This document shows, piece after piece, positions 10,901-13,900 of a stretch of 64,000 nt of DNA. The position numbers were made by a program. The stretch comes from Escherichia coli O127:H6 str. E2348/69 (GTDB taxonomy: Bacteria; Pseudomonadota; Gammaproteobacteria; Enterobacterales; Enterobacteriaceae), in NCBI RefSeq assembly GCF_000026545.1, contig NC_011601.1; one strand, written 5' to 3'. Position 1 is the stretch's first letter. Every line of letters begins with the position of its first letter.

Positions 10901-13900
10901 GATATCTTTTTAACGGATAATCCGTCTAATCTTACTGCCTCTGGCTTGCTTTTAAGCGATGATGAGTCTGGCGTACGGGAAATTGGGCCTGGTCAATTGT
11001 GCGTCAACTTCAATATGAGCAACGCTATGCAGGAAGCGGTCTTACAATTAATTGAAGTGCAACTGGCGCAGGAAGAGGTGACAGAATCGCCTCTGGGCGG
11101 AGATGAAAATGCGCAACTCCATGCCAGCGGCTATTATGCGCTCTTTGTAGACACAGTACCGGATGATGTTAAGAGGCTGTATACTGAAGCAGCAACCAGT
11201 GACTTTGCTGCGTTAGCCCAAACGGCTCATCGTCTTAAAGGCGTATTTGCCATGCTAAATCTGGTACCCGGCAAGCAGTTATGTGAAACGCTGGAACATC
11301 TGATTCGTGAGAAGGATGTTCCAGGAATAGAAAAATACATCAGCGACATTGACAGTTATGTCAAGAGCTTGCTGTAGCAAGGTAGCCTATTACATGAACA
11401 ATATGAACGTAATTATTGCCGATGACCATCCGATAGTCTTGTTCGGTATTCGCAAATCACTTGAGCAAATTGAGTGGGTGAATGTTGTCGGCGAATTTGA
11501 AGACTCTACAGCACTGATCAACAACTTGCCGAAACTGGATGCACATGTGTTGATTACCGATCTCTCCATGCCTGGCGATAAGTACGGCGATGGCATTACC
11601 TTAATCAAGTACATCAAGCGCCATTTCCCAAGCCTGTCGATCATTGTTCTGACCATGAACAACAACCCGGCGATTCTTAGTGCGGTATTGGATCTGGATA
11701 TCGAAGGGATCGTGCTGAAACAAGGTGCACCGACCGATTTGCCGAAGGCTCTCGCCGCGCTGCAGAAAGGGAAGAAATTTACCCCGGAAAGCGTTTCTCG
11801 CCTGTTGGAAAAAATCAGTGCTGGTGGTTACGGTGACAAGCGTCTCTCGCCAAAAGAGAGTGAAGTTCTGCGCCTGTTTGCGGAAGGCTTCCTGGTGACC
11901 GAGATCGCTAAAAAGCTGAACCGCAGTATTAAAACCATCAGTAGCCAGAAGAAATCTGCGATGATGAAGCTGGGTGTCGAGAACGATATCGCCCTGCTGA
12001 ATTATCTCTCTTCAGTGACGTTAAGTCCGGCAGATAAAGACTAATCACCTGTAGGCCAGATAAGACGCGTTAGTGTCTTATCTGGCATTTGCACCGATTG
12101 CCGGATGCGGCGTAAACGCCTTATCCGTCCTACGATTCCCATTATTTCAACAGATTACATTAAAGTAGGCCAGATAAGACGCGTCAGCGTCGCATCTGGC
12201 ATTTGCACTGAATGCCGGATGCGGCGTAAACGCCTTATCCGTCCTACGATTCCCGCGATTTCCTGACCCTCTCGGCATATACCGTCAGCGTCTGTTTTAT
12301 CACATCCAGCGTTACCGGCTTCGACAGGCAACTGTCCATACCGGACTCCAGACACCGCTGCTTCTCTTCAGCCAACGCATTAGCAGTTACTCCGATTACC
12401 GGCAACGTCAGTCCCAACTGACGAATGCGTTGCGTCAAGCGGTAACCATCCATATTTGGCATATTGACGTCGCTAAGCACGATATCAATATGATTCTTGT
12501 TAAGTACATTAAGCGCATCGACGCCATCATTCGCGGTTTTACATTGATAGCCTAACGATCCCAACTGATCTGCCAGCAGACGCCGGTTAATCGGATGATC
12601 ATCCACGACCAGAATCATCATATCGTCATTATCGCTGACCGCTTTGTCCGTCGACGGCAGAGCGTTAGCAGGATCGTCGCTCTCCATCTCGATCAAATAA
12701 ATACGCGCCAACAATGCCGGTAGCTCATGCGGAGCAGCCACACTGTGTACCCACTCCCCTGGCGCTTTCTCCAGCGGAATACCAATATGGCGACGACAGA
12801 AGGTCACTACCGCTCTGCCCTGCCATTTTTTGTTCACTACCTCGTCAGTAATTAACACATCTTCGGGAGTCGGTTCCTGCCCTTCGTATGTTGTAACGAC
12901 GATGCCGCTGCGCTGCAAACTGGTTTCCAGGAACTGACAGAGCGACGCATTGCGGACCGCCAGCCAGCAGCGTTTACCACTCAACCCTTCCACACCTTTT
13001 TTCTGCGGGTACTGAGCGCCGTACAACGGAATACGCACGGTAAACTGGCTGCCCATTCCCGGTTCTGAATCTACCGAGATGTCGCCGTCCATCATGCTGA
13101 TCAGTTTTTCACAAATCGCCAGACCCAGACCAGTCCCCTGGAAGTTACGCTGTACGCCCGTTCCGACCTGGAAGAAGGGATCAAACAAACGCACCACTTC
13201 TTTTGCCGGAATCCCCACGCCGGTATCGCGAACACGGATAGAGAGATAATCGCCATCAGCGCGAACATGCAAAACTATACAGCCGGTATCGGTGAATTTT
13301 ATGGCGTTACTCAGCAGGTTAGAGATGACCTGTTGTAAACGCATCGGGTCGCCATTTAAGGCCACTGGCACATCCGGTTCAATAAAGCAGTACAAGCCTA
13401 ACTGCTTGCGTACCACCAGCGGTAAATAGTTGGCGGTGATGTGGTTCATCACTTCACGCGGTGAAAACTCACGCGGTTCGATCTTCAACTGTTCTGATTC
13501 AATTTTCGAGAAATCGAGAATATCGCTGATAATTTTCAACAACAGGCTGGAAGAGTTGTTCATTGCCGTCACCAGACGATCGACGCCTTTCGGTAACTCT
13601 TTGGTTTGCAACAGATCCAGGTTACCGATAATGCCATACAGCGGCGTTCGCAGCTCATGACTGACGGTGGCCAGGAACATCGATTTTGACTGGCTCGCCT
13701 GTTCCGCTGCTTGTGCCATCTCCTGCAACGACTCTTCCATCTTCACGCGCGAAGAAACATCCACCAGCACACAAATGGCCACGTTTTCATTACGATAGCG
13801 CGAATGGACGAAGCTGATTTGCAGATTGGTATTGTTGCTGGTCAGGACATCAACAAAATTGACCTGCTGCCCACAGATAATTTGTGTCAGCCGTTGGCGG

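What the first reader, a model, noticed from the sequence alone, without database searches (positions are those of the whole stretch)
12051..12255. Duplicated REP unit whose second copy overlaps the rcsC stop codon
Two direct copies of about 90 bp (12051-12140 and 12165-12254), each containing REP-type palindromes, fill the convergent rcsB-rcsC gap, and the second copy extends over the last codons and stop of rcsC (12244). REP/BIME arrays at convergent gene ends can bind gyrase and IHF and stabilise upstream mRNA. The coding overlap means the REP insertion helped shape the RcsC C-terminus.
Basis: seen in the sequence. Interest (0 to 1): 0.3.

Follow-up and report, generated by a model that had tools for sequence, protein, structure and literature searches.

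The report
Known REP array between rcsB and rcsC
The repeat is real, but it is an ordinary and already catalogued E. coli REP/BIME-2 element (REP162 in K-12) lying between the ends of rcsB and rcsC; its copy number varies among strains, and it did not create the RcsC C-terminus.

Summary
Window 12051-12148 and 12165-12262 are direct repeats (98 nt, 91% identical, period 114). Each holds an inverted Z2-type REP, a 13-nt spacer and a Y-type REP. The rcsC stop codon (12244-12246) lies inside the CTAC tail of the second Y REP.

This is a BIME-2 array, listed as REP162 in E. coli K-12. Both units match Rfam naRNA4 (RF02564) above its gathering score.

Copy number is polymorphic. 4436 of 5426 complete E. 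coli genomes carry the inter-unit junction. About 900 have one unit (85-nt gap), and a few have three or more. RcsC is 949 aa in all alleles checked.

The claim that REP insertion shaped the RcsC C-terminus is mostly not supported. The ending RES* also occurs in REP-free Erwinia, Pseudocitrobacter and Trabulsiella. The 16 nt of repeat beyond the REP is rcsC sequence, copied into the spacer by a tandem duplication older than E. coli. IHF binding is not supported, because there is no L motif.

The most likely function is a set of 3'-end hairpins for both convergent transcripts, acting in termination and as an exonuclease barrier. These replace the single terminator-type hairpin found in relatives. 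Interest is low.

The parts
11394..12044 (+). rcsB coding sequence; stop codon TAA at 12042-12044
   Evidence: Translation ends ...LNYLSSVTLSPADKD*. Annotated as rcsB in E. coli genomes. The start coordinate is inferred from the 651-nt K-12 gene.
12051..12086 (-). Unit 1, Z2-type REP. The GTAG tail is at 12051-12054. The stem is a perfect 12-bp palindrome (12055-12066 / 12075-12086). It begins 6-10 nt after the rcsB stop.
   Evidence: (I3). It corresponds to K-12 2316832-2316874, listed under REP162 as a bidirectional-terminator overlap region.
12087..12099 (.). Unit 1 head-to-head short spacer (S type), ATTTGCACCGATT
   Evidence: aligned to the REP325 spacer.
12100..12133 (+). Unit 1, Y-type REP (GCCGGATGCGGCGTAAACGCCTTATCCGTCCTAC)
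   Evidence: It is near-identical to the Y REP of REP325.
12054..12130 (-). Unit 1 core: full-length match to Rfam RF02564 naRNA4 (73.7 bits; gathering score 59.5)
12130..12148 (-). Decayed copy of the rcsC 3' end (stop codon plus 5 codons) inside the inter-unit spacer
   Evidence: 16/19 identical to 12244-12262. It is conserved in the spacer of two non-coli Escherichia genomes, L005 and L006.
12149..12164 (.). Locus-specific part of the inter-unit spacer (AACAGATTACATTAAA); origin unresolved
   Evidence: The junction query 12130-12169 finds a median of one place per E. coli genome. This stretch is variable among strains and species.
12165..12200 (-). Unit 2, Z2-type REP (imperfect stem with an AA/GC mismatch)
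   Evidence: (I4). It corresponds to K-12 2316942-2316985, listed under REP162 as a bidirectional-terminator overlap region.
12201..12213 (.). Unit 2 head-to-head short spacer, ATTTGCACTGAAT
12214..12247 (+). Unit 2, Y-type REP. Its CCTAC tail (12243-12247) contains the rcsC stop codon.
12168..12244 (-). Unit 2 core: full-length match to Rfam RF02564 naRNA4 (77.5 bits; gathering score 59.5). On the rcsC sense strand it starts at the stop codon.
12244..15093 (-). rcsC coding sequence (949 aa); stop TAG at 12244-12246; the last codons 12247-12262 lie within the direct repeat

Best explanation
What it is. This is a BIME-2-type REP array with two units. Each unit has an inverted Z2 REP, a short S spacer and a Y REP. 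It occupies the whole 199-nt gap between the convergent rcsB and rcsC genes of E. coli, and it is the element catalogued in K-12 as REP162.

How it arose (inferred). A 114-bp segment was duplicated in tandem. That segment comprised one BIME unit plus the last 19 nt of rcsC, so a decaying copy of the rcsC end now sits in the inter-unit spacer. The duplication predates E. coli.

How copy number changes (inferred). Unequal recombination or slippage between the 98-nt direct repeats now removes or adds units, giving alleles with 1, 2 or 3 or more units. TnpA_REP-mediated exchange may also contribute.

How it most likely works (inferred from published work on REPs, plus a published listing for this very element). 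When transcribed from either side, the REP hairpins form the structured 3' ends of the rcsB and rcsC mRNAs. They stop or attenuate convergent read-through and block 3'-to-5' exonucleases. They replace the single terminator-type hairpin found in relatives.

A possible consequence. A hairpin starts 0-2 nt after the rcsC stop and 6-10 nt after the rcsB stop. Terminating ribosomes must therefore unwind it, which may lower the yield of both proteins.

The RcsC protein end is ancestral and not REP-derived.
For: Anatomy:
- Direct repeats of 98 nt at 91% identity, period 114.
- Y and Z2 REPs are 85-86% identical to the REP325 Y-Z2 unit. A compensatory T/A swap keeps the Z2 stem paired.
- Both units give full-length Rfam naRNA4 hits at 77.5 and 73.7 bits against a gathering score of 59.5.
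- The region is strongly structured as RNA on both strands, with z = -8.5 and -5.2.

Already catalogued:
- K-12 coordinates 2316832-74 and 2316942-85 are labelled REP162, Convergent, rcsB:...:rcsC.

Polymorphism:
- The inter-unit junction is present in 4436 of 5426 genomes, with up to 3 junctions per genome.
- One-unit alleles have an 85-nt gap.
- A three-unit allele has a 313-nt gap and a chimeric middle unit.
- There are two kinds of one-unit allele. One is a chimera of the unit-1 left part and the unit-2 right part. The other is unit-2-like throughout. This fits deletion by recombination between the repeats.
- BIME-2 length polymorphism is a known property (PMC3333891; PMC1187871).

Age: two non-coli Escherichia genomes (rcsC 91% and 86% identical at the DNA level) carry the same spacer with the rcsC-end copy.

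Relatives: REP-free relatives have 32-75-nt gaps, usually holding one GC-rich hairpin that often has A and T tracts on its flanks.

Function: REP325 acts as a terminator and a stabiliser, and convergent gene pairs with REPs show higher expression. REPs within 15 nt of a stop codon stall ribosomes (Liang et al. 2015, as summarised in PMC12306157).
Against: - No canonical intrinsic terminator (stem followed by a U tract) is found in the region by the simple scan.
- The same preprint finds no general effect of terminal REPs on mRNA half-life and stresses that REP effects depend on context.
- The functional statements are transferred from other REP loci or from a genome-wide listing. Nothing was measured here.
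- The origin of the 16-nt spacer segment 12149-12164 is not explained by a simple tandem duplication of present-day flanks.
Confidence: 0.8

Rival explanations
1. The REP insertion created or reshaped the C-terminal residues of RcsC.
For: The stop codon TAG lies inside the REP GTAG tail. The last Ser codon plus the stop (TCGTAGG) equals the extended REP consensus ...CCTACGA quoted in PMC12306157. The closest relatives sampled, Citrobacter and Enterobacter, end one residue earlier with TAA. The last 16 nt of rcsC match the BIME-2 tail-to-tail linker of REP325 at 11 of 16 positions.
Against: RES*/REG*/REA* endings occur in many REP-free genomes of two families, and TCG TAG GA occurs in REP-free Pseudocitrobacter. 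REP-free Pantoea rcsC ends score the same 11 of 16 against the linker motif, so that similarity comes from conserved codons. RcsC length does not vary with unit number.
Confidence: 0.08
2. The units are processed into naRNA4-like nucleoid-associated RNAs that bind HU and bridge cruciform DNA, contributing to chromosome compaction.
For: Both units match Rfam RF02564 naRNA4 at full length and above the gathering score on the rcsC sense strand. The model of Qian et al. 2015 proposes this role for Y-Z2 units (PMC4550694).
Against: The 2026 preprint from groups that include the original authors reports that REP325/naRNA4 does not measurably compact the nucleoid and that REP-REP contacts are not seen. 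The Rfam model essentially recognises any Y-S-Z2 unit, so a match does not carry the proposed function.
Confidence: 0.07
3. The main effect is translational. REP hairpins that abut both stop codons stall terminating ribosomes, leading to mRNA cleavage and tmRNA tagging. This would hold down RcsB and RcsC levels.
For: The hairpin stem starts 0-2 nt after the rcsC stop and 10 nt after the rcsB stop. Both distances are within the limit of 15 nt or less reported by Liang et al. 2015, as summarised in PMC12306157.
Against: Not tested at this locus. The original paper could not be read here. About half of all E. coli REPs meet the distance criterion, so it is not specific to this locus. The stop-proximal hairpins are the same in 1-, 2- and 3-unit alleles.
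Confidence: 0.25
4. The array acts at the DNA level as a gyrase-binding and cleavage site (a BIME-2 property) that relieves the positive supercoils produced by convergent transcription.
For: The Y/Z2/S architecture is BIME-2. BIME-2 binds gyrase with higher affinity than BIME-1 (PMC1475751, citing Bachellier 1994 and Espeli & Boccard 1997). The convergent gene arrangement fits.
Against: There are no data for this locus. In the supplementary files held, REP162 occurs only in the bidirectional-terminator table.
Confidence: 0.25
5. The array is a selfish or neutral remnant of REP/RAYT activity with no host function, and its copy-number variation is neutral.
For: Copy number varies freely from 1 to 3 or more. 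The units are partly deleted in other Escherichia species. TnpA_REP cleaves and recombines BIMEs in vitro.
Against: Some hairpin is always kept at this position: a REP in Escherichia and a terminator-type hairpin in relatives. No allele lacking all REPs was seen among the examples read. The K-12 element coincides with mapped overlapping transcript ends.
Confidence: 0.2

Closest known systems
BIME-2 (bacterial interspersed mosaic element type 2; Gilson/Bachellier/Hofnung nomenclature) - specifically REP162 of E. coli K-12
   Same: Y and Z2 palindromic units alternate in inverted orientation. The head-to-head spacer is short (S type). The units are tandemly repeated, extragenic and at the 3' ends of genes. 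Length varies among strains. The position and sequence equal K-12 REP162 (98.8% identity over 501 nt).
   Different: The tail-to-tail spacer (30 nt, 12134-12163) is locus-specific rather than one of the common linkers such as AAATTCCCGCACCCTCC. It contains a decayed copy of the rcsC 3' end. One REP tail overlaps a stop codon, although REPs are usually described as strictly extragenic.
REP325 / naRNA4 (Rfam RF02564) between yjdM and yjdN
   Same: Both have a 77-nt Y-spacer-Z2 unit, repeated in tandem and transcribed as the 3' UTR of the upstream gene. Both rcs units pass the Rfam gathering score.
   Different: REP325 has about 6 units with period 100 and a 17-nt linker, and it lies inside an operon of tandem genes. 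The rcs array has 2 units with period 114 and lies between convergent genes. The spacers differ: ATTTGCAC... here against AGTCGGCAC... in REP325.
Bidirectional intrinsic terminators between convergent genes
   Same: Both occupy the same position, a single structured element serving both 3' ends. REP-free relatives have such a hairpin here. The REP162 hairpins are listed among bidirectional terminators.
   Different: The REP hairpins lack proper A and U tracts. Any termination is likely partial or factor-dependent.
REPIN (REP doublet forming a long hairpin; mobilised by RAYT/TnpA_REP)
   Same: Two inverted REPs can fold into one long hairpin, as in the minimum-free-energy fold of unit 2. The GTAG/CTAC tetranucleotides recognised and cleaved by TnpA_REP are present.
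   Different: There is no evidence of recent mobility at this locus. The unit-1 Z2 stem has lost its mismatch. In vitro, the same kind of change (tested on a y REP) abolished TnpA_REP binding.

Membership tests
REP / palindromic unit (Y, Z2 types) | Imperfect palindrome of 30-40 nt with the conserved GTAG tetranucleotide 5' of the stem foot | tested here: met
   Four units with GTAGG/CCTAC tails and 12-14-bp stems. Definition taken from PMC3333891.
REP / palindromic unit (Y, Z2 types) | High copy number in the genome | tested here: met
   The tail motif occurs 11 times in the 64-kb window against 0.59 expected. The 501-nt query finds a median of 27 places per E. coli genome.
REP / palindromic unit (Y, Z2 types) | Extragenic location | tested here: inconclusive
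   Three REPs are fully intergenic. The tail of the fourth (12243-12247) overlaps the rcsC stop codon and one base of the last sense codon.
BIME-2 | Composed of Y and Z2 units in alternating orientation, separated head-to-head by a short S linker | tested here: met
   The order is Z2(inverted), 13 nt, Y in both units. The units are 85-86% identical to the REP325 Y/Z2 unit. Definition.
BIME-2 | Occurs as tandem copies whose number varies among strains | tested here: met
   There are 1.9 copies here. One-, two- and three-unit alleles were seen. The junction is present in 4436 of 5426 genomes, with up to 3 junctions per genome.
BIME-2 | Flanking or tail-to-tail motif of type s, l or r | tested here: inconclusive
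   The 30-nt tail-to-tail spacer is locus-specific and unlike the REP325 and mhp linkers. Consensus sequences for s, l and r were not available to me.
BIME-2 | High-affinity DNA gyrase binding and cleavage | not testable with these tools
   Known for the family only (PMC1475751).
BIME-1 / RIP (IHF-binding BIME) | Y and Z1 units separated by a long L linker that carries an IHF site | tested here: not met
   The spacer is 13 nt and no Z1 unit is present. The only IHF-like match (12145-12157, one mismatch) occurs at the chance rate, 61 against 55 expected.
Rfam RF02564 naRNA4 | Covariance-model score at or above the gathering score (59.5 bits) over the full 77-nt model | tested here: met
   77.5 and 73.7 bits, model positions 1-77, minus strand.
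Rfam RF02564 naRNA4 | Processed RNA that binds HU and condenses DNA | not testable with these tools
   The role itself is disputed.
Rho-independent (intrinsic) terminator | GC-rich stem-loop followed directly by a U tract | tested here: not met
   No site was found at 11800-12500 on either strand. Only 3 U follow the Z2 hairpins.
Translation-regulating REP (Liang, Rudd & Deutscher 2015) | REP located 15 nt or less downstream of the stop codon of the upstream gene | tested here: met
   For rcsB, the GTAG is 6 nt and the stem 10 nt after the stop. For rcsC, the stem starts 0-2 nt after the stop. Criterion as quoted in PMC12306157. The effect itself was not tested.

The most novel reading that the evidence does not exclude
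REP hairpins abut the stop codons of both partners of the Rcs phosphorelay: 0-2 nt after rcsC and 6-10 nt after rcsB. The array could therefore act as a shared translational brake, through ribosome stalling at termination, mRNA cleavage and tmRNA tagging. This would tie RcsB and RcsC abundance to the cell's RNA-helicase, RNase R and trans-translation capacity. Strain-specific unit number (1 to 3 or more) and the perfect-stem unit-1 Z2 variant would then change 3'-end stability and so tune envelope-stress signalling between lineages. A second, weaker reading is that the resemblance between the conserved rcsC 3' end and the common BIME-2 tail-to-tail linker (11 of 16 positions) guided the original insertion by microhomology.
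Probability: 0.15. Interest if true: 0.35.

Novelty: already known. Interest (0 to 1): 0.12.

Why it matters
It matters little beyond good annotation. The element is a catalogued REP (REP162). Its architecture (BIME-2), its strain-to-strain length polymorphism and its likely 3'-end role are all established properties of the family.

Three small points are useful:
- A gene-end overlap with a REP need not mean that the REP changed the protein.
- The direct repeat carries a fossil of the rcsC 3' end, which dates the duplication to before the origin of E. coli.
- The natural alleles with 1, 2 and 3 units offer a ready-made series for testing how REP number affects convergent 3' ends of a well-studied signalling pair.

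Tried and rejected
1. IHF site. The pattern WATCAANNNNTTR with one mismatch hits 12145-12157, but such hits occur at the chance rate in the window (61 against 55 expected). Rejected.

2. Canonical terminators or promoters in the gap. None were found.

3. Whether the inter-unit spacer is a generic BIME motif. The junction query finds a median of one place per genome, so it is locus-specific.

4. Whether the rcsC end was overwritten by the common BIME-2 linker seen at REP325 and mhpE-mhpT. The match is 11 of 16 positions, with P about 0.004 against random window 22-mers, and the test was post hoc. REP-free Pantoea rcsC ends score the same, so the similarity comes from conserved codons. Rejected as evidence for REP shaping.

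5. The origin of 12149-12164 from the rcsB end. By eye, only about 7 of 16 positions match with a gap. Unresolved.

6. REP annotation in the RefSeq MG1655 record. No repeat features are held in this copy. The name REP162 came from a preprint's supplementary table instead.

7. Liang et al. 2015 could not be read. Its result is cited second-hand.

8. The supplements of PMC3333891 and PMC4550694 are not held.

9. My strict script for A-tract/T-tract hairpins undercounts terminators in relatives, because the tracts pair into the stems. I therefore describe that result only qualitatively.
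Full report
**Observation.**
The window is E. coli. A 501-nt query around the finding matches 5425 of 5426 complete E. coli genomes, always at rcsB/rcsC, and is 98.8% identical to K-12. rcsB ends with TAA at 12042-12044. rcsC is the minus-strand ORF 12244..15093, 949 aa, ending ...YAERVRKSRES*. The gap is 199 nt, as in MG1655.

The repeat finder reports two direct copies, 12051-12148 and 12165-12262: 98 nt, 91% identical, spacing 114. TRF reports period 114, 1.9 copies, score 361.

**Anatomy.**
Each unit has three parts, read on the + strand.
- An inverted Z2-type REP: GTAGGCCAGATAAGACGC...GGC, at 12051-12086 and 12165-12200.
- A 13-nt head-to-head spacer: ATTTGCAC[C/T]GA[T/A]T.
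- A Y-type REP: GCCGGATGCGGCGTAAACGCCTTATCCGTCCTAC, at 12100-12133 and 12214-12247.

The REP-tail motif occurs 11 times in the window against 0.59 expected by chance. The units are 85-86% identical to the Y-Z2 unit of the model array REP325, which I fetched from MG1655 yjdM-yjdN. A compensatory T/A swap preserves the Z2 stem.

Rfam places both 77-nt cores (12054-12130 and 12168-12244, minus strand) in RF02564 naRNA4, at 73.7 and 77.5 bits against a gathering score of 59.5. These are the only such hits in the 64-kb window.

By the published definition (z2 plus y, short S linker, tandem copies; PMC3333891) this is a BIME-2. It is not a BIME-1. There is no Z1 unit and no long L linker. The single IHF-like match, in the inter-unit spacer, is at the chance rate.

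The region folds far better than shuffled sequence on both strands, with z = -8.5 and -5.2. It has no stem-plus-U-tract terminator.

**Overlap with rcsC.**
The stop codon TAG (12246-12244) lies within the CCTAC tail (12243-12247) of the second Y REP, and the Y stem begins 0-2 nt after it. On the other side, the first Z2 GTAG begins 6 nt after the rcsB stop and its stem begins 10 nt after.

The direct repeat continues 15 nt past the REP tail. The rcsC side reads CTACGATTCCCGCGATTTC (12244-12262). The inter-unit spacer reads CTACGATTCCCATTATTTC (12130-12148).

**Did the REP shape RcsC?**
I fetched the rcsC 3' end and its downstream DNA from 80 species and read the protein ends, stop codons and gaps.
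- The ending RES* also occurs in Erwinia endophytica, E. mallotivora, E. psidii, Pseudocitrobacter and Trabulsiella.
- REG* occurs in many Pantoea, and REA* in a Pluralibacter.
- All of these have 40-75-nt (one 142-nt) gaps without REP tails.
- REP-free Pseudocitrobacter even reads CGG GAG TCG TAG GA.
- Citrobacter, Enterobacter, Klebsiella and Kluyvera end one residue earlier.

The C-terminal residues are therefore ancestral. RcsC is also 949 aa in one-, two- and three-unit E. coli alleles. The repeat extension is best read as rcsC sequence copied into the spacer by the duplication. At most, the stop codon and perhaps the last Ser codon coincide with the REP tail.

One observation briefly pointed the other way. 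The last 16 nt of rcsC resemble the common BIME-2 tail-to-tail linker of REP325 and mhpE-mhpT. A count gives 11 of 16 positions, with P about 0.004 against random window 22-mers in a post hoc test. REP-free Pantoea rcsC ends score the same 11 of 16. The resemblance therefore sits in conserved codons and is not a REP footprint.

**History and polymorphism.**
The junction between the units (12130-12169) is present in 4436 of 5426 genomes, at a median of one place per genome and at most three. 5337 genomes have a contiguous rcsB-rcsC match. So roughly 900 genomes carry a single unit, and a few tens carry three or more.

Examples are as follows.
- CE-O153H30 and B20105 have one unit and an 85-nt gap.
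- QA-1986 630 has three units and a 313-nt gap, with a chimeric middle unit.
- The two one-unit alleles differ. One is a chimera of the unit-1 left part and the unit-2 right part. The other is unit-2-like throughout.

This is what deletion by unequal recombination or slippage between the 98-nt repeats would produce, and it implies at least two independent events.

Two species-representative genomes of other Escherichia lineages (L005 and L006) have rcsC 91% and 86% identical to the window at the DNA level. Both keep the homologous spacer, including the decayed rcsC-end copy, although parts of their REPs are deleted. The duplication is therefore older than E. coli, and the one-unit alleles are derived.

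Length polymorphism at BIME-2 loci is a known feature, and TnpA_REP can cleave and recombine BIMEs in vitro.

**Function.**
In K-12 this element is REP162. Its two Z2 hairpins lie at 2316832-74 and 2316942-85, which equal window 12049-12091 and 12159-12202. [quoted passage not shown]

That preprint makes four relevant points.
- REP325 acts as a partial, partly Rho-dependent terminator and as a stabiliser of the upstream mRNA.
- Convergent gene pairs with REPs are more highly expressed than pairs without.
- The earlier naRNA4/HU chromosome-compaction role is not reproduced.
- It finds no general half-life effect of terminal REPs and stresses context dependence.

REP-free relatives carry a single GC-rich hairpin in the same gap, often with A and T tracts. 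The Escherichia REP array sits where a bidirectional terminator normally is.

I therefore commit to this reading: the array provides the structured 3' ends of both convergent transcripts, acting in termination or attenuation and as a barrier to exonucleases. Confidence is about 0.8 for the identity and history of the element, and lower (about 0.6) for this being its main function.

Non-exclusive alternatives are:
- translational attenuation, since both stops are within the 15-nt limit reported by Liang et al. 2015 (cited via PMC12306157);
- gyrase binding, a BIME-2 family property;
- no host function at all.

**Verdict.**
It is wrong on IHF binding and on the shaping of the RcsC C-terminus. 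The element is already known and ordinary, and interest is low.

Noticed in passing
window 12051-12086 versus 12165-12200: The two Z2 REPs differ by four changes, all in the loop and on one arm (12071, 12074, 12078-12079). The GC-to-TT change makes the unit-1 stem a perfect 12-bp palindrome. This looks like a quasipalindrome template-switch correction. The same kind of change (removal of the stem mismatch, tested on a y REP) abolished TnpA_REP binding in vitro (PMC3333891). The three-unit allele L085 has a chimeric middle copy.
   Followed up: partly
window 12248-12263; L087 3806-4385; L090 400-620: The last 16 nt of rcsC match the common BIME-2 tail-to-tail linker (AAATTCCCGCACCCTCC at yjdM-yjdN; AAATTCTCGCGCCATCC at mhpE-mhpT) at 11 of 16 positions. 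P is about 0.004 against random window 22-mers. REP-free Pantoea rcsC ends score equally, so the similarity lies in conserved codons. Whether it guided the insertion is unknown.
   Followed up: yes
window 12250-12252: The penultimate RcsC residue is polymorphic inside the repeated stretch. It is GAA (Glu) in the window and CE-O153H30, but GAT (Asp) in K-12 and B20105.
   Followed up: no
window 8300-8393 (+): There is a full-length Rfam MicF sRNA match (116.8 bits) upstream of the long + strand ORF 8705-11377, presumably rcsD. This is expected at this locus in E. coli.
   Followed up: no
window 187-260, 35545-35625, 42384-42540, 43949-43995: Four other REP/BIME sites lie in the window, with various arrangements (tail-to-tail Z2/Y with the 11-nt linker AAATGCTCCCC; a Y-rich array; a single Z2-like REP). 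None reaches the naRNA4 gathering score.
   Followed up: partly
window 12153-12160 and 43999-44006: The 8-mer GATTACAT in the locus-specific rcs spacer (AACAGATTACAT) also follows the REP tail at 43995 (AACGATTACAT), in the opposite orientation relative to the Z2 tail. This is probably chance.
   Followed up: no
L005 2604-2757; L006 2604-2750: In two non-coli Escherichia genomes the array is partly eroded. In L005 the rcsB-proximal unit has collapsed to a single hybrid REP. In L006 the rcsC-proximal Y REP is deleted, yet rcsC still ends TCG TAG.
   Followed up: partly
L008, L011-L013, L017, L019, L020, L034, L035, L046 and others, just downstream of rcsC: REP-free relatives carry one GC-rich hairpin in the 32-75-nt rcsC-rcsB gap, often flanked by an A tract and a T tract. 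This is a typical bidirectional intrinsic terminator. Some Citrobacter, Kluyvera and Enterobacter genomes have their own REP-like tails there.
   Followed up: partly
window 12105-12266 (+), 12147-12278 (-), 12155-12355 (-): Three mechanical ORFs of 43-66 aa run through the REP array. They are made of repeat sequence and are almost certainly not genes.
   Followed up: no
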